Below, piece after piece: positions 3,075 through 39,062 of a DNA stretch of 39,062 nt. The position numbers and the translations under genes are program-made. This stretch comes from a virus (taxonomy: Duplodnaviria; Heunggongvirae; Uroviricota; Caudoviricetes): IMG/VR virus record IMGVR_UViG_2698536355_000010, one strand, 5' to 3'. The notes under the pieces are model-generated. The model was not told the DNA's origin and did not search any database. It saw only the letters and a program-made list of their open reading frames with translations. How positions within the stretch are numbered: position 1 is the stretch's first letter; each line of letters begins with the position of its first letter.

Positions 3075-3164
3075 TTTTCGAGTTCTCCCCATTTTTGCTA
3101 AATTCACAATAATGATACCGCATTATTCCATTTTGCAAACTTAAAAGTTCTCCATTGCGAAGAA

Positions 3165-10711: not shown

Positions 10712-10738
10712 GATCATCCCCCTGAATAAAAACCGGAG

Positions 10739-15786: not shown

Positions 15787-15832
15787 ATGGAAATCATTGC
15801 CTATCGTAAACGACAGTGATATTAAAGAGGTT

Positions 15833-15850
15833 TGTGCAGTCACCCACACA
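15833..15850 (-). promoter_or_regulatory. candidate Ogr/B-dependent late promoter element (P_V)
   Basis: tgtgcagtcacccacaca, TGT-N12-ACA with the same extended pattern and orientation as the P_F and P_O dyads; centre only about 55 bp from V ATG. Confidence 0.4.
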
Positions 15851-15884
15851 AGATGATCATCAAATCTGTTTTGGAAGGATTCTT

Positions 15885-17405
15885 ATGAGTTGCTTAGATC
15901 AATTATCTTCAGAAAATAAAAAATCCCTATTATCATCAGTATTTTCAAAGAGCTATTTCCTCTGGATTGGCTCTGGATTTTCGTACAATTTCGGATATCC
16001 AAGTTGGGGGGCCGTACTTGAAGAAATAGCAAAGCGAATAGAGTACCCGTTAAAATTAGATTCATCACAGCCTCTGCGTGCTGCAGAATTACTTTTAAGT
16101 TATGCGATGAGTGAATCATCAATAAAAGAATATGATTTCAATTCGCTCGTTGCCAGGACGATTATAGATTTAAAAACAGAAACTAAAGAACCAAGATGGC
16201 TTAAAAGATTCAAACTCTTCGCTCCCAATACAATTGTAACAACTAACTGGGATGAGGTGCTTGAAGAAACATTTGAGCATATGGCAAATAAAATCATCAG
16301 AAAGGATCCATTCCCTAAAGTATCAACAAAAGGGAAAAATATCTTCAAAATTCATGGTGACGTCGGAAAACCTGATTCGATTGTTATAACACAAAGTCAA
16401 TACTTTTCTTTTCAGCGCGAAGACACTTATCTTAGCCGAAAAATTTACACATTGTTTTCAGAAATGTCCCCTATATTCATCGGTTACAGCTTAACCGACC
16501 CAAATATAGGTTTCCTTTATGAAGAAGCATTAGCACATCTGCATGGAAAAAACCCGCCAGCATTCATGGTAATTCACCCAGATGCAAACCCTTTAACTTT
16601 CGAGGAGACAAAGTATTTATTTAAATCAAAAAATATACACCTGATTAAAGCAACCATAGAAGACTTCCTTGCAGATTTATCTCAGGAATATAAATCCTTT
16701 AAAGAATCACCTCATCGTTTCAACCTTGAGCACGAACATGTTCTTCCCAAAATAAAAACTGTAATGGATACCGTTACGAAAGGAAAAAAAAATAAAAAAG
16801 CGGAACTAGAAGCCTTATGTCCTCAAAGAGCTGCAAGCTGGGCCGTGACAAAAGCCATAATTGACATTCTAAAGAAACCAATATTGTACATTCAATTCGG
16901 CGGAAAACTTCTTTCTCCAGACAATATTATCCCCTACAGAGAGTTCGATGCTTTAGTTAATGTAGTCATAACACTTAGCAACAATCACGGTTACCCTGAC
17001 GAGCTTATACGTCAAGATTTTCATGCTTCTGTTGTCAAAATGTGCATCGAAACAGAAGGGGTTTGGGACTTCAACTATGCTGAAGTACCTTTCTCTAACA
17101 TTTTAAGAATAAGCCCTAGCCCCGGCACTGAAAGTTTCGACAAAAAAATATCCCATATAATAGAAATTATGCGATGGTCGTCCCCATCTGAAATAGGGAA
17201 GTGCTGGGCAACATGGAATGTATTTAAAGAAAAACAAGATTGGATTAGCCACAGTGATATTGTTGGCATTCTTTCGAAACTTGAAACCGATGGTGACTTA
17301 GAATACCAACCCAGAGATAAAAAATGGCTAAACATCCTGAAAAAATGCCCTCACGCAACGGCTGCAGATATCAAGAGAATTGATACTCTGATAACCCCAG
17401 CTTAG
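15885..17405 (+). CDS. SIR2-like (DHS-like NAD-binding fold) protein with uncharacterised C-terminal domain
   Basis: Motifs FLWIGSGFS (GxGxS), IVTTNWDEVLEE (TTNYD-type), KIHGD, IFIGYSLTDPNI; ATG 15885 preceded by GGAAGGA; gene strongly AT-rich versus flanks. Confidence 0.8.
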   Translation: MSCLDQLSSENKKSLLSSVFSKSYFLWIGSGFSYNFGYPSWGAVLEEIAKRIEYPLKLDSSQPLRAAELLLSYAMSESSIKEYDFNSLVARTIIDLKTETKEPRWLKRFKLFAPNTIVTTNWDEVLEETFEHMANKIIRKDPFPKVSTKGKNIFKIHGDVGKPDSIVITQSQYFSFQREDTYLSRKIYTLFSEMSPIFIGYSLTDPNIGFLYEEALAHLHGKNPPAFMVIHPDANPLTFEETKYLFKSKNIHLIKATIEDFLADLSQEYKSFKESPHRFNLEHEHVLPKIKTVMDTVTKGKKNKKAELEALCPQRAASWAVTKAIIDILKKPILYIQFGGKLLSPDNIIPYREFDALVNVVITLSNNHGYPDELIRQDFHASVVKMCIETEGVWDFNYAEVPFSNILRISPSPGTESFDKKISHIIEIMRWSSPSEIGKCWATWNVFKEKQDWISHSDIVGILSKLETDGDLEYQPRDKKWLNILKKCPHATAADIKRIDTLITPA

Positions 17406-17408
17406 AAT

Positions 17409-17861
17409 TTAGTTATCTTTTGTCATCCACCTCAAGAGAGTGTTTAGAATTATCTGGTTACTCTCTTGGGTTTGTCCCAGCAATCTGCGAGCTGGGTATT
17501 TAATACTTTTGCTTCTTTTACCTATCCGCTCTCTCAATCCGTAGTGGTGAACACGGGCAATGCGCTGTACCTTGCCTTCAAACTGCACGCTGGCAGAGTC
17601 GGCGCTGGCGGAAGTTTTCAGGTATTTTGTGGTGCGCAGCTTTGCAAACATCTGACGTTTGATACGGCCTTTTTTACTGCGTGCTGTTACCCGTCGCGGT
17701 TCATAACTGCTGCCATCTGGATTGCGCTGCATTCTGATATTTTGCTGCTGTGTCCGGCGTAGTTCCTGCGCCAGCTGGCGCATCATGCGGCTTCTTGCGG
17801 CTGGCTCCAGATTCGCCAGCAAGGCACTCAGCCAGTCGTCCACTTTCTGCAGTTCAGCCAC
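17409..17861 (-). CDS. S: tail completion protein S
   Basis: 150-aa ORF in P2 gpS position; its stop lies 3 bp from the convergent SIR2-like stop. Confidence 0.8.
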   Translation of the reverse strand: MAELQKVDDWLSALLANLEPAARSRMMRQLAQELRRTQQQNIRMQRNPDGSSYEPRRVTARSKKGRIKRQMFAKLRTTKYLKTSASADSASVQFEGKVQRIARVHHYGLRERIGKRSKSIKYPARRLLGQTQESNQIILNTLLRWMTKDN

Positions 17862-20662: not shown

Positions 20663-21313
20663 TCAGCGGCTGTCATTGCGCAGTCTGCGCTCCAGCTGCT
20701 GTTTGTCTTTTTTCACGCCACAGCGGGGATCGAGCTGTAACGCATGGTTGAAATGATTAAGGGCAGACGCCGGATTGCCTTCACTCAGGACCGCGCCAAT
20801 CGCTTTATGCAGACGCGCCCGTGACTGATCCGGCATATCCAGACCGTCTGTCAGCTCCAGCGTCTGCAGCAACAGATCGGCATCAAAGCCGGTGGCAGCA
20901 AGCATTGCGCTCTGCGCCGCGTCTGCCATTTCCTCTGCCAGCACGGTCTGCACGTTGCGGTTACCCAGCGGCATCACCCAGCCATGACGCAGGGCATGAC
21001 GCCCGATCTCCAGCGCCCCGGCATAATCTCCGGCATCAATGCGCCACAGCATCACGTACATCAGCACGTCATCCTGTTGAGCGCCTCCGGCAGCCAGAAC
21101 GCCCTCCGCCCAGGCGGCATATTTCGGCAGCAGCTCCACCTTTATTTCCGCTTTTTTCACCGTGGACTGAACGCCCTTGAGACGGCGGCGGTCTTCCGCC
21201 AGTTGCAGCAGCATCAGGTCATAGCCCGACGCGTGGCGAACACTGCCGCCCTCACGGGCGGCCTGTTCAGCCTGAACGCGCAGGCGATGCTGCCGTGCGG
21301 GACTCAGGCTCAT
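20663..21313 (-). CDS. M: terminase endonuclease (small) subunit M
   Basis: 216-aa ORF in P2 gpM position between N and L. Confidence 0.8.
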   Translation of the reverse strand: MSLSPARQHRLRVQAEQAAREGGSVRHASGYDLMLLQLAEDRRRLKGVQSTVKKAEIKVELLPKYAAWAEGVLAAGGAQQDDVLMYVMLWRIDAGDYAGALEIGRHALRHGWVMPLGNRNVQTVLAEEMADAAQSAMLAATGFDADLLLQTLELTDGLDMPDQSRARLHKAIGAVLSEGNPASALNHFNHALQLDPRCGVKKDKQQLERRLRNDSR

Positions 21314-23346: not shown

Positions 23347-25113
23347 ATGAACACCACACTGACACCCGCAGATCTCGATCCCCGTCGGCAGGCCATGCTG
23401 CTGTACTTTCAGGGATACCGCGTAGCCCGCATTGCTGAAATGCTGGGCGAGAAAGTTGCAACCGTTCACAGCTGGAAAAAACGCGACAAGTGGGGTGACT
23501 ATGGGCCGCTGGATCAGATGCAGCTCACCACCGCCGCACGCTACTGCCAGCTCATTATGAAGGAGCACAAAGAAGGGAAAGATTTCAAAGAGATTGACCT
23601 GCTGGCGCGCCAGTCGGAACGCCACGCGCGGATCGGCAAGTTTAACAATGGCGGCAACGAAGCCGACTTAAACCCTAACGTCGCCAACCGCAACAAAGGC
23701 CCGCGCCGTCAGCCGGAAAAGAATGTTTTCACCGATGAGCAGATTGAGAAGCTGGAAGAAATCTTCCATTCCTCCATGTTCAACTACCAGCACCACTGGT
23801 GGGAAGCCGGAAAAACCAACCGCATCCGCAACCTGCTGAAGTCACGCCAGATCGGCGCGACCTTTTACTTTGCCCGTGAAGCCCTGATTGACGCTCTGCT
23901 TACCGGACGTAACCAAATTTTCCTTTCCGCCAGCAAGGCACAGGCCCACGTCTTTAAGCAGTACATCATCGACTTCGCTAAAGAAGTGGAGGTGGAGCTG
24001 AAAGGCGATCCGATGGTGCTTCCTAACGGGGCCACGCTTTACTTCCTCGGCACCAATGCCCGCACGGCCCAGAGTTATCACGGCAACCTGTATCTGGATG
24101 AATATTTCTGGATACCGAAATTCCAGGAGCTGCGCAAAGTGGCTTCCGGTATGGCTATTCACAAAAAATGGCGACAGACCTATTTTTCCACGCCATCCAG
24201 CCTGACACACAGTGCTTATCCGTTCTGGTCCGGTGCGCTGTTCAACCGTGGGCGCAACAAAGCCGATAAGGTGGACATCGACCTGTCCCACAGCAATCTG
24301 GCCCCCGGCCTGCTGTGCGCAGACGGACAATACCGCCAGATAGTCACCGTGGAAGATGCGGTGCGCGGCGGCTGTAACCTGTTCGACCTTGACCAGTTGC
24401 GCATGGAATACAGCCCGGACGAATACCAGAACCTGCTGATGTGTGAGTTCGTGGACGATCTCGCGTCCGTGTTCCCGCTCAGCGAACTGCAGGCGTGCAT
24501 GGTGGACAGTTGGGAAGTCTGGACCGACTTTCATGCACTGGCCCTGCGCCCGTTTGGCTGGCGCGAAGTATGGATCGGTTATGACCCCGCAAAAGGTACT
24601 CAGAACGGCGACAGTGCCGGATGCGTGGTGGTGGCACCGCCAGCCGTACCGGGCGGTAAATTCCGCATTCTTGAGCGTCACCAGTGGCGCGGGATGGACT
24701 TCCGCGCTCAGGCTGACGCCATCAAAAAACTGACCGAACAGTACAACGTGACTTATATCGGTATCGACTCAACCGGCGTTGGTCACGGGGTTTACGAGAA
24801 CGTGAAAGCATTCTTTCCTGCCGTCCGGGAGTTTGTCTACAACCCCAACGTTAAAAACGCCCTGGTGCTCAAGGCCTACGACATTATCAGCCACCGCCGT
24901 CTGGAGTTTGACGCCGGGCACACCGACATTGCGCAATCATTTATGGCAATCCGTCGCGCTACCACCGCCAGCGGCAACCGCCCGACCTATGAAGCCAGCC
25001 GCAGCGAAGAAGCCAGCCACGCCGATCTGGCCTGGGCAACGATGCACGCACTGTTTAACGAACCGCTGCAGGGCGAATCCGCCAATGCCAGCAATATTGT
25101 GGAGATTTTTTGA
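23347..25113 (+). CDS. P: terminase ATPase (large) subunit P
   Basis: 588-aa ORF, P2 gpP-like. Confidence 0.9.
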   Translation: MNTTLTPADLDPRRQAMLLYFQGYRVARIAEMLGEKVATVHSWKKRDKWGDYGPLDQMQLTTAARYCQLIMKEHKEGKDFKEIDLLARQSERHARIGKFNNGGNEADLNPNVANRNKGPRRQPEKNVFTDEQIEKLEEIFHSSMFNYQHHWWEAGKTNRIRNLLKSRQIGATFYFAREALIDALLTGRNQIFLSASKAQAHVFKQYIIDFAKEVEVELKGDPMVLPNGATLYFLGTNARTAQSYHGNLYLDEYFWIPKFQELRKVASGMAIHKKWRQTYFSTPSSLTHSAYPFWSGALFNRGRNKADKVDIDLSHSNLAPGLLCADGQYRQIVTVEDAVRGGCNLFDLDQLRMEYSPDEYQNLLMCEFVDDLASVFPLSELQACMVDSWEVWTDFHALALRPFGWREVWIGYDPAKGTQNGDSAGCVVVAPPAVPGGKFRILERHQWRGMDFRAQADAIKKLTEQYNVTYIGIDSTGVGHGVYENVKAFFPAVREFVYNPNVKNALVLKAYDIISHRRLEFDAGHTDIAQSFMAIRRATTASGNRPTYEASRSEEASHADLAWATMHALFNEPLQGESANASNIVEIF

Positions 25114-26147
25114 TGGGAAAGAGTAAGAAGAACCGCGCTGCGGCGACGAATCAGATCCAGCTTAAAAGTCAAACTACAGCCGAAGCATTCAGCTTCGGCG
25201 ATCCCGTTCCTGTTCTGGACCGCCGAGAATTACTGGACTATGTGGAATGCGTACAGATGGACCGTTGGTATGAGCCGCCCGTCAGCTTTGACGGACTGGC
25301 GCGCACCTTCCGCGCTGCCGTGCATCACAGTTCCCCGATTGCAGTAAAGTGCAACATTCTGACCAGTACCTATATCCCTCACCCGCTGCTCAGCCAGCAG
25401 GCTTTTTCACGTTTTGTGCAGGACTACCTGGTATTTGGTAACGCCTACCTGGAGAAACGCACGAACCGCTTCGGTGAAGTTATCGCCCTTGAGCCTGCGC
25501 TGGCAAAATACACCCGACGCGGGTTAGACCTGGATACCTACTGGTTTGTGCAATACGGTATGACAACCCAGCCGTATCAGTTCACGAAAGGCAGCATTTT
25601 TCATCTGATGGAACCGGACATCAACCAGGAGATCTACGGCTTGCCCGGCTATCTTTCTGCCATTCCATCCGCCCTGCTCAACGAATCCGCCACGCTGTTC
25701 CGCCGTAAGTATTACATCAACGGCAGCCATGCAGGCTTCATCATGTACATGACCGACGCCGCGCAGAATCAGGAGGATGTGAACAACCTCCGCAACGCGA
25801 TGAAAAGCGCCAAAGGTCCAGGCAACTTCCGCAACCTGTTTATGTACTCGCCTAACGGCAAAAAGGACGGGCTTCAGATCATTCCTCTGTCAGAAGTCGC
25901 AGCGAAGGATGAGTTTCTGAATATCAAAAATGTCAGTCGCGATGACATGATGGCAGCACACCGCGTACCGCCGCAAATGATGGGGATTATGCCGAATAAT
26001 GTTGGGGGTTTTGGGGATGTGGAGAAGGCGAGTCGAGTTTTTGTGCGAAATGAATTGAGGCCACTACAAAAGAGCCTATTAGAGCTGAACAACTGGTTAA
26101 AGGAGGATGTAATACATTTTGAGGATTATAACTTAGATATTCAATAA
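25110..26147 (+). CDS. Q: portal protein Q
   Basis: 345 aa; AEAFSFGDPVPVLDRR..LDYVEC...WYEPPVSF matches remembered P2 gpQ; last approx 60 codons AT-rich and divergent. Confidence 0.9.
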   Translation: MMGKSKKNRAAATNQIQLKSQTTAEAFSFGDPVPVLDRRELLDYVECVQMDRWYEPPVSFDGLARTFRAAVHHSSPIAVKCNILTSTYIPHPLLSQQAFSRFVQDYLVFGNAYLEKRTNRFGEVIALEPALAKYTRRGLDLDTYWFVQYGMTTQPYQFTKGSIFHLMEPDINQEIYGLPGYLSAIPSALLNESATLFRRKYYINGSHAGFIMYMTDAAQNQEDVNNLRNAMKSAKGPGNFRNLFMYSPNGKKDGLQIIPLSEVAAKDEFLNIKNVSRDDMMAAHRVPPQMMGIMPNNVGGFGDVEKASRVFVRNELRPLQKSLLELNNWLKEDVIHFEDYNLDIQ

Positions 26148-26151
26148 TCTT

Positions 26152-26175
26152 AAAAACCTGCATATGCAGGTTTTT
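26152..26175. terminator. bidirectional hairpin terminator between Q and the cargo operon
   Basis: aaaaa-cctgcatatgcagg-ttttt, palindrome flanked by an A-run and a T-run. Confidence 0.6.
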
Positions 26176-26210
26176 ACATTATATAGTTATAAAACTAACA
26201 AAAATCATAT

Positions 26211-26876
26211 TCAAAGCTCTGAGTCTACAGGCTCATGATAAAGGTTTACAGGGTAGTGTATAACCTCATAATTAAGTTGACTAACAGTGTGAGTATGTTG
26301 ACTGTAAAAAACCAATGGGTTTCTCTTACAAGGAGTTATCGAGATAGACTTACAAGCATGAATTCTTGGAGCCGATTTATCTAAATGAGCCTTCCACTTA
26401 GTCATCATTTCATTACATTTTTTATTACGCGTATATATAATTAACCCACCACTTGCACTGTCTACAGTACCAGTGCTATATCGCTCAGTGAGTTGTGCAT
26501 ACCCTTTAAATAAATAACCATATGAACCAGTGTGTTTTTTGGCCTCGCCATGCCAAGTAAATCTATTCAACTTTATTGTTATATCACAATGACCTCGTTG
26601 ATTATTTTCATGATATGCTTCAATTCCCATATCTTTATTTTTTATATTTGCCAGTAAAATTAAAGTAAGCTGATCTTCTGTTAAATCAAAATTCAATTTA
26701 TTTGAATTTTCCTCAATTGCCTGTACAGCAGAATCAAGCTCAATTCTTACAAACTGTTTGACGTTCTCATACGACTGGAGAGCAAACCTAACGCGAGTAA
26801 TAGAAGCATTGATACGCTGAAGAAAAATATCATTATCAATTTCAGCTAAACTCATTGGTGCAGACATTTTTAACAT
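26211..26876 (-). CDS. hypothetical protein, cargo operon gene 3 (possible PD-(D/E)xK-like motif)
   Basis: 221 aa; ATG overlaps upstream stop (ATGA); HCDITIK...(14)...GEAKK resembles a D...ExK motif; AT-rich. Confidence 0.6.
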   Translation of the reverse strand: MLKMSAPMSLAEIDNDIFLQRINASITRVRFALQSYENVKQFVRIELDSAVQAIEENSNKLNFDLTEDQLTLILLANIKNKDMGIEAYHENNQRGHCDITIKLNRFTWHGEAKKHTGSYGYLFKGYAQLTERYSTGTVDSASGGLIIYTRNKKCNEMMTKWKAHLDKSAPRIHACKSISITPCKRNPLVFYSQHTHTVSQLNYEVIHYPVNLYHEPVDSEL

Positions 26877-27310
26877 CAGACAATATCCTTTAATTTAGAT
26901 TCATCTAATGTAAAAAAAGGAAAGACGAAGGACTTATAGTCATACATAATCTCCCCTGTAAATGGGTTTACTAAAGATTGATTAATTTCAGCCTCTATAA
27001 CATCTTCTAACTCAAGCTCAATAGGATCATGAAAATCATCAATAAACCAATAATTGAGTTTTAAAAACTCAACCTTTGGACTACAAAGAATTTGTATAGC
27101 TGGGTACACAACCTGCTCATATGCTTCAGGTTGTATACATCCTTTATAACCATTAACGATACTAAATAAATCTTTATAACTCAGAGCTATATTAGGCGAT
27201 TTCTTTGCTCTCACACCAATTTCATCATACAAATAGCAAGCTAGCGCCCCTATATCAGGGCGCTCTGCACATATTTCTTTGATGATCTGGGGCATATCAC
27301 CATCCTTCAT
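26876..27310 (-). CDS. hypothetical acidic protein, cargo operon gene 2
   Basis: 144 aa from ATG 27310 with GGAG 6 nt upstream; tightly packed between genes 1 and 3. Confidence 0.55.
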   Translation of the reverse strand: MKDGDMPQIIKEICAERPDIGALACYLYDEIGVRAKKSPNIALSYKDLFSIVNGYKGCIQPEAYEQVVYPAIQILCSPKVEFLKLNYWFIDDFHDPIELELEDVIEAEINQSLVNPFTGEIMYDYKSFVFPFFTLDESKLKDIV

Positions 27311-27322
27311 TGCTGACTCCAA

Positions 27323-28429
27323 TTATAATATCAGCTTTGTGAGGGTTTCGAAATCATCTTTGGATATACATTTGCTTAATATAGCATAATTGACAGGAGA
27401 GCACCCACTACCACCTAAATGTCTGCGTAATGTTCCTGGAATGATAAGCTCTACACTATCCGCCAATTGCAATTTTGGATTATTCCTATCTACTCTAATT
27501 CCAATACGATATAAACCAATATTACCTACAGCTTTAATGCCCTCTTTATTAAACAGATCATCACGCAAGTCTTTCTTAGCCACATTTTTCTTTTCCTTAT
27601 GAGTGGTTCCCTCATAAGTTAAAAATGACAAATCGAACACCTTATAACTTAAACTTGAATATGGCATTACATTTTGCTTGAAAATTGGCTCAATTAATGG
27701 ATAAAAATCCTTTTCCGATGAATTAAATTGATAACCTGCGCAATTATATAACTCACGAATAAAATTCGTTTTCGCAAAAACGATATTATCACCAACAACA
27801 TTACCATTAGTATCAATTAATACATGGATTTTATTTGAAGCTGAATCTAATATACACACATCAAAACACTGACGTTTTTCTTTTCTCTTCGCAATGATTT
27901 CATCAAACTGTTTGTATGCTGCTAACTTTGACGGAGGGACTTTCTCTCTTACAACCAGCTCCCTGATAGATGAAAATACCAAAATAGACTGAGTATTTTG
28001 CTTAGAGTAATTAACAAGCTCAAGTTGATTTTTAATAGCATGCTGTAATTGAACATCATCAACAATCGTTTCGACTAATGATGTTGGTTGCTTCATCATA
28101 TTCCATTGGAGAGCATATCTATCATCAAGTAATTTAATTACTTGACTATCTACAGACAAACTAAATATTGCTTTTTCACCATAAACAACCTGCCCAAAGA
28201 CTAAATCATTTACACTTGCAATGATTTTGTCAAATTTTTGCCTATCTTTCTTTTTAAAATCAATGAGGCTTTCTAGTATTTTGTCGTTTGTTGCTTCACG
28301 CCCTCTACCTGTAGGTAGCCCTAAAGAAGCAATAATTGGTCTGGCGATATGCCACGTAAAACGTTCAGTTAAGGCTAAGATCGACTTTAACTCAAAGTCA
28401 GAAAGCACCACTGGGACACCACTTGTCAT
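27323..28429 (-). CDS. hypothetical protein, cargo operon gene 1
   Basis: 368 aa from ATG 28429 with AGGTG upstream; no nucleotide-binding or other motif recognised by eye; AT-rich. Confidence 0.6.
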   Translation of the reverse strand: MTSGVPVVLSDFELKSILALTERFTWHIARPIIASLGLPTGRGREATNDKILESLIDFKKKDRQKFDKIIASVNDLVFGQVVYGEKAIFSLSVDSQVIKLLDDRYALQWNMMKQPTSLVETIVDDVQLQHAIKNQLELVNYSKQNTQSILVFSSIRELVVREKVPPSKLAAYKQFDEIIAKRKEKRQCFDVCILDSASNKIHVLIDTNGNVVGDNIVFAKTNFIRELYNCAGYQFNSSEKDFYPLIEPIFKQNVMPYSSLSYKVFDLSFLTYEGTTHKEKKNVAKKDLRDDLFNKEGIKAVGNIGLYRIGIRVDRNNPKLQLADSVELIIPGTLRRHLGGSGCSPVNYAILSKCISKDDFETLTKLIL

Positions 28430-28589
28430 AACATGCACCTAGTCAACCCAAAAGCAATTGAAAATCGCTCTTGTCTTAATTTTTTCCATCAATATCTAAC
28501 AAATTACCTTAATGTTGAAAAAGTTTGCAAGCCATTTGCGTCTAAAAAGTGACTTGACTCAATGTGTTACAAAGCTTAGCGAGCGCGCG

Positions 28590-28608
28590 CTCGTATCCCC
28601 GCCACGCC
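28590..28608 (-). other. cos-like cohesive-end site
   Basis: Minus strand reads GGCGTGGCGGGGATACGAG followed by CGCGCGCT, closely resembling the remembered P2/186 cos (GGCG[A/T]GGCGGGGAAAGCA...GCGCGCT). Confidence 0.5.
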
Positions 28609-28647
28609 TGCCCGCTTTATGTAGTGGTTTTCATGCACCTGCATGAC

Positions 28648-28676
28648 ATAAGCAAAAGCCCGCCAGCTCTGGCGGG
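28648..28676 (-). terminator. rho-independent terminator downstream of HNH gene
   Basis: Stem gcccgccag/ctggcgggc (28657..28676) followed on minus strand by TTTTGCTT. Confidence 0.5.
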
Positions 28677-28790
28677 CATCAGCAAAAACGATCCTCAAAC
28701 GATCATGCGATTTCATGCGACATAGACATGCGTTGGCAAAAATGTACGAAATACTCAGCTTACAGGAAATGGTCTTTTTCCAACCTCCAG

Positions 28791-29510
28791 TTAGCCAAAG
28801 CAGAAACCAATATTGCAATTTGAAACTCCACAGTTGTGAAATTGATGTGGACCGACTCTTAGCTTGTGTTCGTCTCCTACAATCCGAGTCCCCTTAACCA
28901 ACATATCTAATCTTTCCACAATCAATCTTTCAGGCGCATCAACTTTAATAATTAAACGAGGACCTTTCCTTTTTTCTATAATAGTTATTCTAGGACCAAC
29001 AACCTGAACATCCCAATGCCTTGCACTACAAACCCACTCATTCTTAATTAATTCAAGATTAACAATACCTTGACTATCGTAAAATTTACCCGAAATAAGA
29101 AAAGCATTATTTTCTTTTTCAATGGTTAACAATGGCTCATTTTGAAACATTATTGGTACAGTACAGGATTCAAACGTCGCACCACCAAATATTATTGTTG
29201 GATGCCTATCAGAAAAGTCCAATATATCGGCCACATTCCCTTTTTGTAAGGCTGCAGGAGATTCCATTGCTTTAATTATTTTCTCTTTAGAGTAAAGACG
29301 TTTCGTTACTTTCGCATGGCACGTAGGACAAAGTAGTGCTATTGCATTTGGAGAGTGCTCCTTTGCATCAGCGTATGTGGGAATTACATGCTCATACTCA
29401 ACAATGGGAGAAGCACAAACAACGCAACCAAAGCCACAGCGCTGCCTTACCTCCAGTTTTACAGGTTCAGGAATTGTTCTAGATAACCCATGCTTGTTAA
29501 TAGTTGTCAT
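28791..29510 (-). CDS. HNH-endonuclease-domain protein
   Basis: N-terminal CGFGCVVC...EYEHVIP...N...LLCPTCH (HNH pattern); C-terminal 160 aa unassigned; AT-rich; AAGGTAAGG before ATG. Confidence 0.7.
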   Translation of the reverse strand: MTTINKHGLSRTIPEPVKLEVRQRCGFGCVVCASPIVEYEHVIPTYADAKEHSPNAIALLCPTCHAKVTKRLYSKEKIIKAMESPAALQKGNVADILDFSDRHPTIIFGGATFESCTVPIMFQNEPLLTIEKENNAFLISGKFYDSQGIVNLELIKNEWVCSARHWDVQVVGPRITIIEKRKGPRLIIKVDAPERLIVERLDMLVKGTRIVGDEHKLRVGPHQFHNCGVSNCNIGFCFG

Positions 29511-29632: not shown

Positions 29633-29866
29633 TTAATGCAGCCAGCTGTCGTCTTCCCACACCTTCTGCATAATTTTCATCACTTGCTTCCTTTCTTCGT
29701 CCAGTTGCAGTCCGGTCAGTTCCACACCGTTAGAGCTACCTTTGCGGATACGAATTACCGTTTTGGGATACAGGGGGCGCAGATTACGGTAAAGCTCGGA
29801 TTCAAGGGCGTCTAGGGTAGACTGGCTAATCTTCTGCTCTTTATCGATCATTATTTCAATGCGCAT
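29633..29866 (-). CDS. DinI-like protein
   Basis: MRIEIMIDKEQKISQSTLDALESELYRNL...WEDDSW resembles DinI (MRIEVTIAK...ALAGEL...TWESADDW); GAGGTGA 6 nt upstream of ATG 29866. Confidence 0.7.
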   Translation of the reverse strand: MRIEIMIDKEQKISQSTLDALESELYRNLRPLYPKTVIRIRKGSSNGVELTGLQLDEERKQVMKIMQKVWEDDSWLH

Positions 29867-29876
29867 AAAAGTCACC

Positions 29877-30065
29877 TCAACTGATGACATCCATTGAGCG
29901 GTTGTATTCGTGGGTTCTGATTTTTGCCATGAGTTCATCTGTTAGTTCAGAAACCCACTGCAAAGCCAGCCCCTTCTCTTCATCACTACACTCACTAGCC
30001 GCTACAAGCTTAAGAAAAAAATCAATGCGCTGGAGCTTCAAAGACTCCAAAAAATAGTCCTGCAT
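29877..30065 (-). CDS. small hypothetical protein, first gene of SOS-box operon
   Basis: 62 aa from ATG 30065 with AGGAGG 4 nt upstream; stop lies inside the dinI-like RBS. Confidence 0.5.
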   Translation of the reverse strand: MQDYFLESLKLQRIDFFLKLVAASECSDEEKGLALQWVSELTDELMAKIRTHEYNRSMDVIS

Positions 30066-30218: not shown

Positions 30219-32633
30219 TTAATACAGGTTCCGCCACTTATCATCTTCCTGCAAACGCTGGTTCCGATAGAAGATACGCAGGCCTGCTCCTGACGGAATA
30301 CTGCCACCGCGAAGGAGCAAATCGACCTCTTTCTCGCTGCCATCAAATCCTCTGGACTTCAGTTCATAGACGAGCTGCTGACGCTGATACTCTGTAATTC
30401 GCTGTTTGTAGTCTTTACGCCGTTTCGGTTTAACCAGGCGTAATCTTGCTGCCAGTTCCCGGCGCTCTTTTTTGCTCATACTGTGCAGGTAATCGTGCAA
30501 CTCCTTGTCATCCATGCGGGTGATATCCGTTCTGGTATCCCCATCAGCTGATTTGTCTTTCCCTTGTTGGTTCAAATTTTCAGCAAGGGGACAGTTATTG
30601 CCACGAGTCCAAGGGGCGCAAGCGCCCTGGTCGGCTGCCGCCTCCTGAACGTCAACGGCTTTACGAACCATTTTCCACTTCACTGCATGAGTGCAGATCT
30701 TGCCCTCTGCAATGGGTGACCAGATGCCATAAATACGAATGCCGTGATCGCCATAGGCGGTCGGCTCTTCGTTGATTTCATAAGCGGTTCTGATGAGGTG
30801 ATATTTACGGGGAACCAGTACGCCGCCCTGCTTCATGATGTAGGTGGCAAAACAACCAGCATCAGCAGCAGCCAGAATGGCATCAAGGCGCGGGTTATCC
30901 AGTACCGGCGCACCTGCTTTTTTGTCACCCTGTTGCCTTGCCGCCTGACCAGCCAGCAAGCGAAGTTCACGGTAAGCCTGACGCCCCGGAATACCAAAGA
31001 AGCGGAATTGCTGAACACGATGCAGAGACGCCCAGGCATTCACGTATTCAGCGTTATCACGCAGAGATTTACCCGTTTCCTTGCTGATCTCGCCAGCCAG
31101 ACCACGACCGTCAATGTTCTTACTGATATATTTCGCGATGTAGCTTGTCGGCGTTCCTTTGCGCGGGTTAATCAACTCAGACTTAAAGCGCGGCCCAGTG
31201 TTATTGCCCAGCTCCTCGCGGTCTTCACGGATGGCAAACTTACGCAGTAATGCAGTGATGGCACGGCGGTCTTTTTTGCGCATGAAACACAACAGGTGCC
31301 AGTGAACTGTGCCATCATGATGCGGCTCAGCCACCCGCACGCCATACCAGCGCAACCCGGCTTTGTGCATCGCCTTACGAAATGCAGCAAACATGCCGAC
31401 CAGATAATCGCTGCTTTGTCTTACCGTCGCGTTTGTCCAGGTCGGGTTTGGTCTGCCGTTATTTAGCGTGGAATGGAAACGCGACGGACAGGTGATAGTG
31501 TAGAAAACGGCGCAGTCACCGCGCATTTCCGCGATAAGCTCCAGACCTTTAACACAGGCCATCATCTCATTGCGGCGATGCGCAGGGTTGCTGCTGCTGG
31601 CGTTTACCACATCCTCCATGTCCAGCGTGTCGCCGTCTTCGTTCACCAGTTCATGAGAACGGAAAAACTCCAGCGACTTACGGCGCTGCTCACGTTTATG
31701 CATCACGGCTTCATAGCTGACATAAGGAGATGCTTTTTTGCTGACCAGGCAAACAGCGCGCAACTGCTCTTCCCGCCATTCGCAACGCATCTTCCATAAT
31801 TTCCGATACCACCAGTCGGCGCACAACATACGCGCCAGCGAACCCGGAATGAGTTCATAGGGCACGGGTTTACGGCGGTTTCTTTTCCGGCGGAGTTGCT
31901 CAAACGCAGGTGGGATGACATCCAGACGCAGGGTTTCCGCTGCCACCTTTTCCCATGTCTTGCGGATTTCTTCTGGCTTAACGTCATCGGTGGCATACAA
32001 ATCACCACAAGCTGCATCAAGGCACATACTCATATGCGCAGCTACCAGGGTGGACAGGCGTTTCACCTGATCCTGACTCATTTCAGGCAGGATCAGCAGG
32101 CCGTCCAGCCCTTCATGGCTTGCCATAAAGCGAAAAGATGCAGATAGCTGACTGTCGCGTACATGCTCCAGTCGTTCCAGACATGGCTTAATCGTCTCAC
32201 GTAAATAGCGGGAATAAGCCTTTGGCCTGCCCAGGCTGCTGAAGTATTCAATACGTTGCATCAGCGGCTTGCTGATATGGGAAGGCTGGGCGTTGACGTC
32301 CGCCAGAATGACCATGTCTGAATTAAAACGCTGCTGCTCATGCGCCAGCTTTGCCCGGCTAATGAGCTTATCCTGCTCCATTTCGCGCTGGACAGGATCA
32401 CGTGATTCATTAAAGAAATAACGCTCCCAGACCTGATCACTCAGTGCCTCGCGGCGCAACTGTTCCTGCTCGTTATCGGCAGCGTACAGAGTGATCAGGT
32501 TTGAAAGCGTAGAAACCGGCGCAACTTCCGCCGGGTCCAGATAAGGGTTAATGGCCTTTTTCGGGCTGTTCCATGAGAATGCTGCGGCAGCCTCGTTAAA
32601 GCCGCAGCAGTTGTTCATATCGGCATGACTCAT
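30219..32633 (-). CDS. A: replication initiation endonuclease A (rolling-circle)
   Basis: 804-aa ORF, P2/186 gpA-like size and position. Confidence 0.85.
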
Positions 32634-35633: not shown

Positions 35634-36230
35634 ATGTCAACATCAAAGTACCCAAGTGAGATCAAAATAAATCCCAATAAAGGTGGTAAGGCTGCGATTG
35701 AGCGATTAGTCGAAGCCTATGGCTTTACGACACGACAGGCTTTAGCTGATCACTTGGAAGTATCAAAAAGCACACTAGCGAACAGGTATTTGCGGGATAC
35801 ATTTCCTGCTGACTGGATAATCCAATGTGCTCTTGAAACAGGAACCTCCCTCAAATGGTTAACTACCGGACAAGGCCTTAAGCAAAGCTCGCTGACAGCA
35901 GCTACAGAAGAGCTTGTTAAGTTTCGCCTTGCCGCAGGCAAAATGATTGAAGACGGTTCATATGTCTTCGATTCATCATTTCTTCCTGCAAACCTTTCAT
36001 CACCAATTGTTGTTCAGGATGGACTCGTCACATACATTTGTGATCAAAAATTTTCTGAAGTACTTGATGGAAACTGGTTAATCAATATCGACGGAACCTA
36101 TTCCATTCGAAAAATCACAAGGCTTCCTAAAGGAAGGATTAAAATTACAACAGCAGAGAATAGCTTTGAATGTGCATTTTCTGATATTGAAGTGGTTGCT
36201 TGTATAAGAAGTACAATAGTCTCGAATTAA
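35634..36230 (+). CDS. cI: CI immunity repressor (phage 186 type)
   Basis: 198-aa ORF with N-terminal HTH (TTRQALADHLEVSKSTLANR); divergent from apl. Confidence 0.8.
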   Translation: MSTSKYPSEIKINPNKGGKAAIERLVEAYGFTTRQALADHLEVSKSTLANRYLRDTFPADWIIQCALETGTSLKWLTTGQGLKQSSLTAATEELVKFRLAAGKMIEDGSYVFDSSFLPANLSSPIVVQDGLVTYICDQKFSEVLDGNWLINIDGTYSIRKITRLPKGRIKITTAENSFECAFSDIEVVACIRSTIVSN

Positions 36231-36250: not shown

Positions 36251-37927
36251 ATGAATTCATTTGCCATCGTTATACTCTTATTAGCATTTCTCGCCCCTGT
36301 TCTAGCTGTAATATTATTTAAACAAAGTAAAAAACACAAAGCGGCTATAGATAACCTGACAGCTAACAACATAGCCCTTTCTAACCAACTGATTGAAAAT
36401 CAAGAAAAACTAGCACAGACCGTACGAGAATTATCAGAGCTTGAAGGGCGAGCAGCACCATTGTGGCAATACGAAGAATTGCACAGCGCAGTAATGGATG
36501 CAGAGAATAAGATAAAAAATGCGGACTCAATAGCCAAGCAAAAAATAGATGAAGCCCAAATTAAGGCGGCTAAAACAGTAAACGAAGCAAATTATCAAGC
36601 TCAGATGACAATAAGCAACGCTAATAGCGAAGCTATAGCAATCACCAAAGACGCTCGCGATGCACGCCTGAAAGCCAAAGAACGTCTTGATAATGCTAAT
36701 AATAAAGCAAATGAGCTAATCTCAAATGCTAATGACAATGCAGTAAAAATTATTTCTGATGCAGAAGAAAGAGCAAAGGAGATTGCTGGTTCAGCATATG
36801 AAGCTAAAGAGTTTGCAGAAAAATATGAAGCAGTTGCAAAATCAATGAAAAATAAAATTGAAGGTTATGGTGATGAATGGATCATCCCTAACCGTAGTGT
36901 ACTTGATGAGCTGGCAGAAAATTATGAATTTACAGATGCAGGCAAGGAATTACAAAAAGCCAGAGAGTTAACCAAATCATTAATAAAAACTAATAAAGCT
37001 GCTTCGTGTGATTATGTTGAGCAAAACAGGCGTAATACTGCCATAAACTTTGTTTTGGATGCCTTCAATGGAAGAGTTGACAGTATTTTATCAAAAGTCA
37101 AACACAACAATTTTGGAAAACTTTCCCAAGAAATAAAAGATGCATTTCAACTAGTAAATTACAATGGCTCTGCCTTTAGGTCCGCAAAAATAAGTGACAT
37201 CTATCTTCAGGCAAGACTCAACGAGCTAAAATGGGGTGTAGCAGTTAATGAAATTATGCTCGAAGAAAAAGAAGAGCAAAGAAGGATTAAAGAACAGCTT
37301 CGTGAAGAGGAAAGAGCTCGTAGAGAATATGAAAAAGCGATAAAAGAAGCTGAAAAAGAAGAAAAAGCTATTCAGCAAGCTATAAATAAAGCAACGAAAG
37401 AACTTATGCTTGCAAATGAAGAACAACGCTTAGCTTTAGAGCAAAAAATAGCTGAACTACAGTTAAAATATGAAGAAGCTGAAGCTAAAAATCAACGAGC
37501 TATTTCTATGGCTCAACAAACCAGATCAGGCCACGTCTATATCATTAGTAATATTGGTTCATTTGGCGAAGATGTATATAAAATTGGAATGACACGCCGC
37601 CTTGAACCACTTGATCGTGTTCGTGAACTCGGAGATGCTAGTGTTCCTTTTTCGTTCGATGTTCATGCGATGATTTATAGTGATGATGCACCATCATTAG
37701 AAAACCATCTGCATAAAGTTTTCAACGAAAAGCAGGTCAATAAAATTAACTCACGAAAAGAGTTTTTTAACGTAAATTTAAAAGAAATCAAATCAGTTAT
37801 TGAAGACATGAACATCAACGCCCACTGGACAATGTTTGCAGAGGCGAAAGAATATAGAGAGTCTCTAGCTATTGAGCAGGAGCGCAAAGCAGCCACTTCC
37901 GCCAACGATGAACTACATGTTGCTTAG
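36251..37927 (+). CDS. membrane-anchored coiled-coil protein with C-terminal T5orf172/GIY-YIG-like domain
   Basis: N-terminal TM helix (FAIVILLLAFLAPVLAVILF), roughly 400 aa A/E/K/N-rich coiled coil, C-terminus VYIISNIGSFGEDVYKIGMTRR...PFSFDV...LENHLHKVF...EFF; AT-rich; AGGA before ATG. Confidence 0.75.
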   Translation: MNSFAIVILLLAFLAPVLAVILFKQSKKHKAAIDNLTANNIALSNQLIENQEKLAQTVRELSELEGRAAPLWQYEELHSAVMDAENKIKNADSIAKQKIDEAQIKAAKTVNEANYQAQMTISNANSEAIAITKDARDARLKAKERLDNANNKANELISNANDNAVKIISDAEERAKEIAGSAYEAKEFAEKYEAVAKSMKNKIEGYGDEWIIPNRSVLDELAENYEFTDAGKELQKARELTKSLIKTNKAASCDYVEQNRRNTAINFVLDAFNGRVDSILSKVKHNNFGKLSQEIKDAFQLVNYNGSAFRSAKISDIYLQARLNELKWGVAVNEIMLEEKEEQRRIKEQLREEERARREYEKAIKEAEKEEKAIQQAINKATKELMLANEEQRLALEQKIAELQLKYEEAEAKNQRAISMAQQTRSGHVYIISNIGSFGEDVYKIGMTRRLEPLDRVRELGDASVPFSFDVHAMIYSDDAPSLENHLHKVFNEKQVNKINSRKEFFNVNLKEIKSVIEDMNINAHWTMFAEAKEYRESLAIEQERKAATSANDELHVA

Positions 37928-38009: not shown

Positions 38010-39062
38010 ATGGCAGTACGAAAACTAACCACAGGGAAATGGCTTTGCGAATGTTACCCCGCCGGACGAAGTGGGCGTCGTGTGCGTAAACAATTCGCTA
38101 CCAAAGGCGAAGCACTGGCTTTTGAGCGCCACACGATGGAAGAAACCGAAGCAAAGCCCTGGCTGGGTGAATCAGTGGATCGTCGAACACTGAAAGACGT
38201 GGTTGAGCTATGGTTCAAACTACATGGTAAATCTCTGACAGCTGGGCAGCATGTCTATGACAAATTGCTGTTGATGGTTGACGCTCTGGGCAATCCTCTT
38301 GCAACCGATCTCACCTCTAAAATGTTTGCCCACTATCGAGATAAACGCCTGACAGGCGAGATCTACTTCAGCGAGAAATGGAAGAAAGGAGCAAGCCCGG
38401 TCACCATTAACCTGGAGCAAAGCTATCTAAGTAGTGTTTTTAGCGAACTATCCCGTCTGGGCGAATGGTCGTATCCGAACCCACTGGAGAACATGCGAAA
38501 ATTCACCATCGCAGAAAAAGAGATGGCATGGCTTACCCATGAGCAGATTGTTGAATTGCTGGCTGATTGCAAACGTCAGGACCCAATTCTGGCACTGGTA
38601 GTTAAGATATGCTTAAGCACAGGCGCACGCTGGCGTGAAGCCGTAAATCTTACCCGCTCACAGGTGACCAAATACCGAATTACCTTTGTCAGAACGAAGG
38701 GGAAGAAAAACAGAAGCATCCCTATCAGTAAAGAGCTTTACGAAGAGATCATGGCGCTTGATGGGTTCAATTTCTTCACAGACTGCTATTTTCAATTTTT
38801 ATCCGTGATGGAAAAAACGTCTATCGTGCTCCCTCGCGGTCAACTCACACACGTTCTGCGCCATACGTTTGCGGCGCACTTCATGATGTCGGGTGGAAAC
38901 ATTCTGGCCTTACAAAAAATTCTCGGACACCACGATATAAAAATGACTATGCGTTACGCACATCTGGCACCGGATCATCTAGAAACGGCGCTCCGTTTCA
39001 ATCCTCTGGCAACGCTGCCAAGTGGCGACAAAGTGGCGGCAGCGGTTGGCATTACCCCGTAA
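38010..39062 (+). CDS. int: tyrosine integrase
   Basis: 350 aa; LSTGARWREA, HVLRHTFA and MRYAHL blocks match P2-family Int; stop at the window edge. Confidence 0.9.
   Translation: MAVRKLTTGKWLCECYPAGRSGRRVRKQFATKGEALAFERHTMEETEAKPWLGESVDRRTLKDVVELWFKLHGKSLTAGQHVYDKLLLMVDALGNPLATDLTSKMFAHYRDKRLTGEIYFSEKWKKGASPVTINLEQSYLSSVFSELSRLGEWSYPNPLENMRKFTIAEKEMAWLTHEQIVELLADCKRQDPILALVVKICLSTGARWREAVNLTRSQVTKYRITFVRTKGKKNRSIPISKELYEEIMALDGFNFFTDCYFQFLSVMEKTSIVLPRGQLTHVLRHTFAAHFMMSGGNILALQKILGHHDIKMTMRYAHLAPDHLETALRFNPLATLPSGDKVAAAVGITP

What the first reader, a model, noticed from the sequence alone, without database searches (positions are those of the whole stretch)
28590..28608. cos-like site 2.4 kb from the portal gene, with cargo on both sides
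The minus strand reads GGCGTGGCGGGGATACGAG followed by CGCGCGCT, close to my recollection of the P2/186 cohesive end and its flank. If this is cos, the three-gene operon occupies the extreme left end of the packaged genome and the HNH gene the extreme right end, so both genome termini carry cargo.
Basis: partly seen in the sequence, partly recalled or inferred. Interest (0 to 1): 0.4.

Follow-up and report, generated by a model that had tools for sequence, protein, structure and literature searches.

The report
P2-type cos site flanked by cargo
The flagged 19 bases are almost certainly the DNA-packaging cut site (cos) of a P2/186/Fels-2-like prophage, with variable accessory genes on both sides, an arrangement that is already described and is the norm in this phage lineage.

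Summary
The minus strand 28608->28590 reads GGCGTGGCGGGGATACGAG and is followed by CGCGCGC. A consensus built only from the annotated P2 and 186 cos junctions matches the window once, here, with 0 mismatches; none of 100 shuffles matched.

The 19-mer aligns in register with cosL of P2 (14/19) and 186 (15/19). It is identical to the published, annotation-based cos of Salmonella phage SEN8. It ends a sharply bounded 149-bp block (28583-28731) conserved in 55 related prophages from different species. That block has the same layout as the P2, 186 and P4 cos regions.

It lies between replication gene A and portal gene Q of a prophage with intact P2-type terminase genes. Low-GC cargo flanks it. A three-gene operon would sit at the left end of the packaged genome, and an HNH-domain gene at the right end. 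The two assort independently among E. coli prophages.

The gpA-gpQ region next to cos is the published P2 defence hotspot, and the cosL-Q interval was called a foreign-gene hotspot in the 1990s. In 52 species-level loci, 44 carry left cargo and 25 carry cargo on both sides.

Cleavage itself is inferred from homology, not shown. The uncharacterised operon is the most interesting by-product.

The parts
28590..28608 (-). Predicted cosN. This 19-nt sequence would become the 5' single-stranded cohesive end (GGCGTGGCGGGGATACGAG). The left end of the packaged genome would start at 28608 and read downward.
   Evidence: It aligns in register with the annotated cosL of P2 and 186. It is identical to the first 19 bases of SEN8 record NC_047753, annotated 'putative cos site'. 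It is also inside the annotated putative cos of phage Cartapus and identical in 34 of 63 genome loci.
28583..28731 (-). Complete conserved cos block of 149 bp: the cos 19-mer, 7 bp on the left-end side (CGCGCGC) and about 123 bp on the right-end side.
   Evidence: Similarity to phage records stops at these two edges. Per-column conservation across 55 loci from different species drops sharply at both edges. The breakpoint with E. coli prophages falls at 28731.
28701..28731 (-). Three direct GCATG repeats (starting at 28731, 28718 and 28708). They are candidate terminase-binding repeats. This function is inferred.
   Evidence: The columns are nearly invariant. The same triple TGCAT/GCATG arrangement is present in P2, 186 and P4. 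GCATG occurs 4 times in the block against 0.13 expected.
28658..28677 (-). GC-rich hairpin (GCCCGCCAG/CTGGCGGGC) followed by a T run. It looks like an intrinsic terminator for the gpA-DinI-HNH transcript and is a conserved inverted repeat inside the cos block.
   Evidence: The terminator scan finds it. The stem is conserved while the loop varies, and some loci show compensatory stem variants. 186 and P4 have an inverted repeat at the same relative position.
28627..28647 (-). Proximal repeat pair TCATGCAGGTGCATGAAAACC, followed by AAAGCGGGCA directly 5' of the cut site. This is part of the conserved core shared with P2, 186 and P4.
   Evidence: Over a 57-nt core the window matches P2 at 44/57 and 186 at 44/57; P2 and 186 match each other at 48/57.
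27323..28429 (-). Left-end cargo, gene A (368 aa from the ATG that RefSeq uses; the ORF list gives 371 aa from a GTG at 28438). The predicted fold is closest to the DNA-binding protein RdgC.
26876..27322 (-). Left-end cargo, gene B (148 aa, acidic, no assignable fold or family).
   Evidence: (PHROG 11490, unknown). It occurs together with A and C in distant relatives.
26211..26876 (-). Left-end cargo, gene C (221 aa): predicted PD-(D/E)xK nuclease.
26152..26175 (.). Palindromic hairpin AAAAACCTGCATATGCAGGTTTTT between the portal stop codon and the end of the operon. It looks like a bidirectional terminator and occupies the position of P2 tQ.
   Evidence: Read directly from the sequence. P2 and 186 annotate tQ/tW at the equivalent place.
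28791..29510 (-). Right-end cargo: a 239-aa protein with an N-terminal HNH zinc-finger nuclease motif and a C-terminal domain of unknown function.
   Evidence: Pfam HNH E 2.4e-5. PHROG 6544, unknown. Not homologous to the genes in the same slot in 186, Fels-2 or SEN8. Present next to DinI in 21 of 5,426 complete E. coli genomes. Absent from a prophage whose TerL is 99% identical.
29633..29938 (-). DinI/Tum-like gene. It is the last conserved gene on the gpA side and serves as the right anchor of the right cargo bay.
   Evidence: Pfam DinI E 1.3e-22. It has the same position in Fels-2, SEN8, MLG42 and E. coli prophages.
30219..32633 (-). Replication initiator gpA.
   Evidence: Pfam Phage_GPA E 1.4e-127.
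25110..26147 (+). Portal protein gpQ, the left anchor of the left cargo bay.
   Evidence: Pfam Phage_portal. 80 related loci were retrieved with it.
23347..25113 (+). Large terminase gpP (HTH + ATPase + RNase H-like nuclease). This is the enzyme expected to nick cos.
   Evidence: Pfam Terminase_5, Terminase_6N and Terminase_6C. 63% identical to P2 gpP.
20663..21313 (-). Small terminase gpM.
   Evidence: Pfam Phage_term_smal E 2.2e-40.

Best explanation
Positions 28590-28608 (minus strand) are the cosN site of a P2/186/Fels-2-type (Peduoviridae) prophage. They sit at one end of a 149-bp cos block (28583-28731).

Inferred mechanism, by homology with P2 and 186: after replication, the phage terminase (gpP 23347-25113 and gpM 20663-21313) binds the block. 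The likely contacts are the five GCATG-type repeats and the inverted repeat, which all lie on the right-end side. The terminase then makes two nicks 19 bp apart, and the genome is packaged as a linear molecule with 5' GGCGTGGCGGGGATACGAG cohesive ends.

In that linear molecule the three-gene operon (28429->26211) starts about 160 bp from the left terminus. The HNH gene (29510->28791) ends 182 bp from the right terminus.

Both genes are horizontally acquired cargo. They occupy two bays of the known gpA-gpQ hotspot: DinI-to-cos and cos-to-Q. The conserved cos block separates the bays and can act as a shared recombination anchor, so each bay swaps its content independently.

Shown here: the sequence, its homology, its conservation, the gene content and the variability. 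Inferred: terminase binding, the cut positions and the biological role of the cargo.
For: The sequence is present and unique, and it matches a consensus derived only from P2 and 186.

It aligns in register with the annotated cos of P2, 186 and P4, with a shared layout: 3x TGCAT, an inverted repeat, 2x TGCAT, AAAACC, AAGCGGGC, cos, YGCGCGC. Over the 57-nt core it matches P2 and 186 at 44/57, while P2 and 186 match each other at 48/57.

The identical 19-mer is published as the cos of the viable phage SEN8, whose record starts with it. It also lies in the annotated cos of phage Cartapus.

A cos motif (the GGCGNGGCGGGG core, read on the strand opposite the portal gene) was found downstream of the portal in 63 of 80 portal-anchored genome loci; 34 carry the exact 19-mer, in the window's orientation relative to the portal. 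In the 52 loci where gpA was also located, the motif lies between the portal and gpA. The conserved block has sharp edges.

An intact P2-type terminase is present.

Cargo status is supported by low GC and by independent assortment. Twelve E. coli genomes have the cos block plus the operon at >99% identity but no HNH gene. Twenty-one have the HNH gene; the one inspected (strain 23-AB02114) carries different left cargo. None of 5,426 genomes has both modules together. Each module stays on its own side of cos in distant relatives.

The literature describes the gpA-gpQ hotspot next to cos and the cosL-Q interval as a hotspot for foreign genes.
Against: No virion-end data exist for this prophage. 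As far as I could find, none exist for any phage with this exact 19-mer; the SEN8 cos was assigned by annotation. The last six bases of the 19-mer (TACGAG) differ from P2 and 186 (AAGCAC/T), so the exact nick positions are extrapolated. The prophage is at least 36.2 kb from Ogr to the integrase stop, about 8% longer than P2, and it carries four cargo loci. Whether it still packages efficiently is unknown. A scan of IMG/VR gave no contigs that end at the site, so there is no independent physical-end evidence.
Confidence: 0.9

Rival explanations
1. The site is a true cos homologue but is no longer used. The prophage would be defective or too large to package, and the block would be a relic.
For: The prophage is at least 36.2 kb and has four cargo insertions. 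There is no experimental evidence of induction. One related locus (L046, Rosenbergiella) carries the same operon but has no cos block between DinI and the operon, so cos loss does occur in this lineage.
Against: Every nearly invariant column of the 55-locus alignment is intact in the window. The 19-mer and its flank are identical to those of the viable phage SEN8. P, Q, M, gpA, the CI repressor and the integrase are all full-length. Deposited phage records that carry this cos block are 31-39 kb long.
Confidence: 0.08
2. The block is a functional cos, but the terminase cuts at positions shifted from those of P2 and 186, or leaves an overhang of a different length. The true ends would then not be exactly 28590/28608.
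For: Positions 14-19 of the 19-mer differ from P2 and 186. The ends were never determined for this variant.
Against: The bases on both sides of the two predicted nicks (GGGCR|GGCG and N|YGCGCGC) are conserved with P2, 186 and P4, and the spacing is unchanged. TerL is 63% identical to P2 gpP over its full length.
Confidence: 0.07
3. The HNH gene next to cos is not cargo. It would be a packaging accessory nuclease, as in HK97-type and staphylococcal cos phages that need an HNH protein for cos cleavage.
For: An HNH motif is present and the gene lies 182 bp from cos. SEN8 also has an HNH gene near cos. HNH-dependent cos packaging is known in other phage groups (cited).
Against: An E. coli prophage with 99% identical TerL and the same cos block has no HNH gene. 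The protein is unrelated to the SEN8 HNH protein and to the occupants of the same slot in 186 and Fels-2. It was found in only 1 of 80 related genome loci and in 21 of 5,426 E. coli genomes. Its GC content is 38% against 54% for the phage core. P2-type TerL carries its own RNase H-like nuclease domain.
Confidence: 0.03
4. The match is a chance GC-rich similarity with no packaging role.
For: None beyond the short length of the original 19-nt observation.
Against: A 29-specified-base consensus from P2 and 186 matches exactly, and 0 of 100 shuffles match. The surrounding 149-bp block is conserved in 55 species-level loci at the same gene position.
Confidence: 0.01

Closest known systems
cos of Salmonella phage SEN8 (Felsduovirus; NC_047753) and of Fels-2, Escherichia phage Cartapus and Yersinia phage MLG42 (the last two classified as Elveevirus in their records)
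   Same: The 19-mer and the CGCGCGC flank are identical. The window's 149-bp block matches the corresponding region of MLG42 at 96% and of Fels-2 and SEN8 at about 91-92% (83% to SEN8 in the wider 5-way MAFFT alignment). It has the same position between DinI/gpA and Q. These phages also carry cargo between cos and Q: 2 genes in SEN8, 1 in Fels-2, 1 in Cartapus.
   Different: The cargo genes differ on both sides. In those phages too, the cos assignment comes from annotation rather than end mapping.
cos of coliphages P2, 186 and satellite P4 (19-nt 5' cohesive ends; 55-bp core of Ziermann & Calendar 1990, as cited in PMC5694545 and PMC9122126)
   Same: The first 13 bases match 186 (12 of 13 match P2). 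The YGCGCGC and AAGYGGGCR flanks, the AAAACC box, the TGCAT repeats and the inverted repeat are shared, as is the orientation relative to Q and the type of terminase.
   Different: Bases 14-19 are TACGAG rather than AAGCAC/T, so the cohesive ends would not anneal with P2 or 186 ends. In P2 and 186 the Q stop is about 170 bp from cos with no cargo on the left. P2 carries old and tin only on the right, and 186 carries tum and orf97 on the right.
P2 gpA-gpQ anti-phage hotspot next to cos (Rousset et al. 2022, PMC9122126; 2026 NAR follow-up PMC13586616) and the cosL-Q foreign-gene hotspot (Dodd & Egan 1996 and Nakayama 1999, as cited in PMC5694545)
   Same: The interval is the same. The three operon proteins (WP_021580613/4/5) already appear as 'hypothetical' entries in Rousset's Table S5. 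The cloned 3HP system fragment contains this same cos variant.
   Different: In the text I read, those papers treat the interval as one hotspot. Here it resolves into two bays separated by a fixed 149-bp cos block. This operon is not homologous to the validated 3HP system and is not among the systems they cloned.

Membership tests
P2-family (Peduoviridae) cos site | A 19-nt GC-rich cohesive-end sequence beginning GGCG(A/T)GGCGGGG | tested here: met
   The 19-mer matches 186 at 15/19 and P2/P4 at 14/19.
P2-family (Peduoviridae) cos site | Conserved core around the cut site: TGCAT-AAAACC...AAGYGGGCR on the right-end side and YGCGCGC on the left-end side (the '55-bp core') | tested here: met
   (44/57 to P2 and to 186; P2 vs 186 is 48/57).
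P2-family (Peduoviridae) cos site | Location between the gpA-side early/accessory region and portal gene Q, with the GGCG end facing Q | tested here: met
   The motif was found downstream of the portal in 63 related loci, on the same strand relative to the portal by design of the search; gpA was located beyond it in 52 of them.
P2-family (Peduoviridae) cos site | A cognate P2-type terminase encoded in cis (gpP with HTH/ATPase/nuclease domains, and gpM) | tested here: met
P2-family (Peduoviridae) cos site | Terminase makes staggered nicks here, giving 19-nt 5' overhangs on virion DNA | not testable with these tools
   This needs virion DNA end sequencing. The IMG/VR scan gave no contig ends at the site.
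P2-family (Peduoviridae) cos site | The block is sufficient to direct packaging of a plasmid (cosmid transduction) | not testable with these tools
   An experiment is required.
P2 gpA-gpQ cargo/defence hotspot | Gene content between gpA and gpQ varies among otherwise near-identical prophages | tested here: met
   The interval lengths range from 148 to 3,499 bp on the left and 485 to 4,390 bp on the right.
P2 gpA-gpQ cargo/defence hotspot | The cargo confers anti-phage or other lysogenic-conversion activity | tested here: inconclusive
   There are no PADLOC hits at meaningful E-values. Protein C has a restriction-endonuclease-like fold with an intact D-ExK triad and protein A has an RdgC-like fold. 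This is suggestive only.
HNH packaging accessory of cos phages (HK97 gp74 / phi12 type) | The HNH protein is conserved together with the terminase and is required for cos cleavage | tested here: not met
   The gene is absent from a prophage with 99% identical TerL and the same cos block. It is rare among relatives.
Rousset '3HP' three-gene defence system | Homology to the three proteins of pFR109 | tested here: not met
   BLASTP finds no significant hits, and the gene sizes differ.

The most novel reading that the evidence does not exclude
The 149-bp cos block may act as a fixed recombination anchor that divides the P2 hotspot into two cargo bays. The bays would exchange content independently but share one size budget set by capsid capacity. 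Left and right interval lengths are negatively correlated: Spearman rho is -0.55 in 52 species-level loci and -0.40 in 30 IMG/VR loci. In this reading, the left bay here holds an undescribed three-gene anti-phage system (RdgC-like DNA binder, small acidic protein, BamHI-like PD-(D/E)xK nuclease) at the very left end of the packaged genome.
Probability: 0.35. Interest if true: 0.45.

Novelty: already known. Interest (0 to 1): 0.15.

Why it matters
For the finding itself, little changes. The work places the packaging site of this prophage, and so the ends of its virion DNA, on a sound comparative footing. It also shows that the "cargo at both termini" layout is the usual state of Fels-2/SEN8-type P2-like phages rather than an oddity.

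There are two practical uses. First, the sharply bounded 149-bp block (28583-28731) is a ready candidate for a minimal cos cassette for this terminase specificity, for example in cosmid or transducing-particle design. Second, cos can be used as a landmark to split the known hotspot into two bays when mining for defence genes.

The untested three-gene operon, a predicted nuclease with an RdgC-like partner, is a reasonable candidate for a new anti-phage system.

Tried and rejected
1. I looked for physical-end evidence in IMG/VR by scanning for the 25-mer that spans cos and its flank. It returned at least 120 stretches of DNA (80 were listed), and none started or ended at the site. This is uninformative, because most are prophage-derived contigs.

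2. I looked for phage records that begin at the site. SEN8 does, but by annotation rather than end mapping. Cartapus starts 32 bp upstream of the 19-mer.

3. I tested whether the operon is Rousset's validated three-hypothetical-protein system. It is not.

4. I tested whether the HNH protein is related to the occupants of the same slot in 186 (Orf97), Fels-2 (STM2726) or SEN8. It is not.

5. I tested the idea that the HNH protein is a packaging factor and rejected it.

6. Pfam, PADLOC, NCBIfam and PDB sequence searches for the operon proteins gave nothing. Only the fold searches were informative.

7. My first consensus pattern was one N too short and gave a false zero.

8. Literature searches for the operon accessions, and for RdgC together with anti-phage defence, found nothing.

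9. I could not retrieve the original Ziermann & Calendar 1990 paper. Its 55-bp core is quoted second-hand from PMC5694545.

Full report
**Observation.**
The minus strand of the window from 28608 down to 28590 reads GGCGTGGCGGGGATACGAG and continues with CGCGCGCT. The 19-mer occurs once in the window, even allowing three mismatches. That test is circular, so I also built a degenerate consensus from the annotated P2 and 186 cos junctions alone: AAGYGGGCR GGCGWGGCGGGGA N6 YGCGCGC. It matches the window once, at 28583-28617 on the minus strand, with no mismatch. None of 100 dinucleotide-preserving shuffles gave any match, even with one mismatch allowed. An earlier version of the pattern was one N short and gave a false zero.

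**Comparison with reference cos sites.**
- GenBank annotates cosL of P2 as bases 1-19, GGCGAGGCGGGGAAAGCAC. It annotates the cos of 186 as GGCGTGGCGGGGAAAGCAT.
- I joined the right and left ends of each record to rebuild the circular junction and aligned them with the window.
- The window 19-mer falls exactly in register. It matches 186 at 15/19 and P2 at 14/19. All differences but one lie in the last six bases.
- The flanks align too. AAAACC...AAGCGGGCA lies immediately 5' of the site and CGCGCGC immediately 3'.
- Adding SEN8 and satellite P4 (P4 sequence taken from Rousset Table S2) shows one common layout in all five. The order is: three TGCAT/GCATG repeats, a GC-rich inverted repeat, two more TGCAT-type repeats, AAAACC, AAGYGGGCR, the 19-mer, YGCGCGC.
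- Over a 57-nt core the window matches P2 and 186 at 44/57 each. P2 and 186, whose ends are experimentally known, match each other at 48/57.

**The same 19-mer in described phages.**
BLAST of the region against phage records finds 88-91 records (Klebsiella, Yersinia, Salmonella, Escherichia). The similarity is confined to window 28583-28731.
- The record of Salmonella phage SEN8 ends exactly at the base before the 19-mer and starts with ggcgtggcggggatacgagcgcgcgc. Bases 1-19 are annotated "putative cos site".
- The SEN8 genome announcement gives this very sequence as the cos site, found during annotation (PMC5427200). It is the only paper in the library containing the 19-mer.
- Phage Cartapus annotates bases 1-59, which include the 19-mer, as "putative cos site, homologous to the cos of P2 phage".
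- Fels-2 and Yersinia phage MLG42 carry the identical 19-mer.

**Conservation and boundaries.**
- With the portal protein as query I retrieved 80 loci from a one-genome-per-species collection.
- A cos motif (the GGCGNGGCGGGG core, searched on the strand opposite the portal gene) lies downstream of the portal in 63 of them. In the 52 where gpA was also located it lies between Q and gpA. The exact 19-mer occurs in 34, and single-base variants at position 13 occur in most of the rest.
- Per-column conservation across 55 of these loci defines a block from 28731 to 28583, with abrupt loss of similarity at both edges.
- The block extends only 7 bp beyond the 19-mer on the left-end side (toward the operon and Q), but about 123 bp on the right-end side. 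So any recognition sequences lie on the right-end side.
- Within the block GCATG occurs four times on the cos strand, against 0.13 expected from the window-wide frequency.
- A hairpin at 28677-28658 followed by a T run scores as an intrinsic terminator for minus-strand transcripts. Its stem is conserved, its loop varies, and a few loci show compensatory stem changes.

**Genomic context.**
The window holds an almost complete P2-like prophage.
- A host permease gene (935-2620) is followed by Ogr (2856-3107), then the tail and head genes.
- The packaging genes are small terminase gpM (20663-21313), large terminase gpP (23347-25113) and portal gpQ (25110-26147).
- After the cos region come DinI, gpA (30219-32633), a Dam-type methylase, a 186-type CI repressor and an integrase that ends at the window edge.
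- gpP has the HTH, ATPase and RNase H-like nuclease domains and is 63% identical to P2 gpP.
- The machinery expected to use the site is therefore present and looks intact.

**Are the flanking genes cargo?**
*Left of cos, in P2 orientation:*
- A three-gene operon runs on the minus strand (27323-28429, 26876-27322, 26211-26876).
- It ends at a palindromic terminator-like hairpin shared with the portal gene (26152-26175).

*Right of cos:*
- A 239-aa HNH-motif gene lies at 28791-29510.

*Evidence that both are acquired and exchangeable:*
- GC content is 34% for the operon and 38% for the HNH gene, against 53-55% for P, Q, gpA and the cos block.
- Twelve complete E. coli genomes carry window 26150-28731 (operon plus cos block) at more than 99% identity, and the match stops exactly at 28731. 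In strain SA53-3, DinI is followed after 82 bp by the cos block, with no HNH gene.
- Conversely, 21 E. coli genomes carry the HNH gene next to DinI. In strain 23-AB02114 the left side holds two different small genes.
- No complete E. coli genome has both modules together.
- In distant relatives, operon homologues (52-60% identity) again lie on the Q side. An HNH homologue (39% identity) again lies on the gpA side.
- The HNH protein is unrelated to 186 Orf97, Fels-2 STM2726 and the SEN8 HNH protein.
- Because TerL in the HNH-less SA53-3 prophage is 99% identical, the HNH protein is not a packaging cofactor of the HK97 type.

**How common is the layout?**

| Data set | Left cargo (Q stop to cos >= 500 bp) | Right cargo (cos to gpA stop >= 1,000 bp) | Both | Neither | Spearman rho, left vs right |
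|---|---|---|---|---|---|
| 52 species-level loci with both anchors | 44 | 32 | 25 | 1 | -0.55 (p = 2e-5) |
| IMG/VR loci with the exact cos | 45 of 52 | 30 of 52 | not counted | not counted | -0.40 (p = 0.03; 30 distinct pairs) |

- In the species-level set the median intervals are 1,686 bp on the left and 1,427 bp on the right. The window has 2,442 and 1,610 bp.
- The negative correlation was not corrected for phylogeny. I read it as a hint of a shared size budget, not as a result.

**What is already known.**
- Rousset et al. 2022 describe the region between gpA and gpQ, next to cos, as a hotspot of anti-phage systems in P2-like prophages. They note that P2 itself carries old and tin there (PMC9122126; P2 annotation).
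- The 2026 NAR follow-up repeats this (PMC13586616).
- The three operon proteins (WP_021580613/4/5) are listed as hypothetical proteins in Rousset's table of P2 loci. They are not among the systems Rousset cloned.
- The operon proteins are not homologous to the validated three-hypothetical-protein system. The cloned fragment of that system happens to carry this same cos variant.

**The cargo itself (by-product).**
- None of the three operon proteins hits Pfam, PADLOC or NCBIfam. They fall in PHROGs of unknown function.
- Homologues form about 40 clusters for each of proteins A and C, apparently confined to Enterobacterales. Several A and C homologues come from contigs of identical length or from the same named organism, which suggests they occur together.
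- A nuclease plus a DNA-binding partner in the defence hotspot suggests an anti-phage system, but nothing here tests that.

**Verdict.**
- The cut itself is inferred. No end mapping exists for this 19-mer variant.
- The arrangement is already described and is the majority state in this lineage, so the finding is ordinary.
- Three modestly new points emerged: the sharp 149-bp definition of the cos block, the two-bay structure of the hotspot with a possible size trade-off, and the uncharacterised nuclease operon.

Noticed in passing
[not shown]
   Followed up: partly
window 15816-17405 (+): A 529-aa SIR2_2-domain protein (Pfam E 3.5e-26) is inserted on the opposite strand between tail genes V (15208-15849) and S (17409-17861). 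This is a probable defence gene in a slot that P2 does not have.
   Followed up: no
window 36251-37927 (+): A 558-aa protein with DUF4041 and T5orf172/MUG113 domains lies between the CI repressor (35634-36230) and the integrase (38010-39062). It is a fourth cargo locus in the same prophage.
   Followed up: no
window 10145-10717 (-): A Hin/Gin-type serine invertase sits next to the tail-fibre genes. This suggests a switchable tail-fibre (host-range) segment.
   Followed up: no
52 genome loci L011-L072 and IMG/VR loci L091-L170: The Q-to-cos and cos-to-gpA interval lengths are negatively correlated (Spearman -0.55, p = 2e-5; and -0.40, p = 0.03 in a second set). The combined length reaches at most about 5.1 kb. 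This fits a shared cargo budget limited by the capsid. It was not corrected for phylogeny.
   Followed up: partly
L046 13640-13960 (Rosenbergiella epipactidis): A homologous operon sits between the portal and DinI, but no cos block is present in the AT-rich spacer. The prophage has either lost cos or is rearranged. A second, partial copy of the element lies on the same contig (L047).
   Followed up: partly
L160 3441-3465 and 6704-6728 (IMG/VR metagenome contig): Two copies of the cos block lie in inverted orientation 3.2 kb apart. Each is flanked outward by DinI and then by Q and P, and there is no gpA. This looks like a head-to-head chimeric assembly or a rearranged pair of prophages.
   Followed up: partly
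window 28658-28677 (minus strand): A conserved terminator-like hairpin lies inside the cos block. 186 and P4 have an inverted repeat at the same relative position but without the T run. It may therefore serve packaging rather than, or as well as, transcription termination.
   Followed up: partly
Rousset 2022 Table S2A, plasmid pFR109: The cloned fragment of the validated 'hp+hp+hp' system includes this same cos variant (CTCGTATCCCCGCCACGCC) and most of the cos block. Those test plasmids therefore carried a packaging signal for Fels-2/SEN8-type P2-like phages.
   Followed up: no
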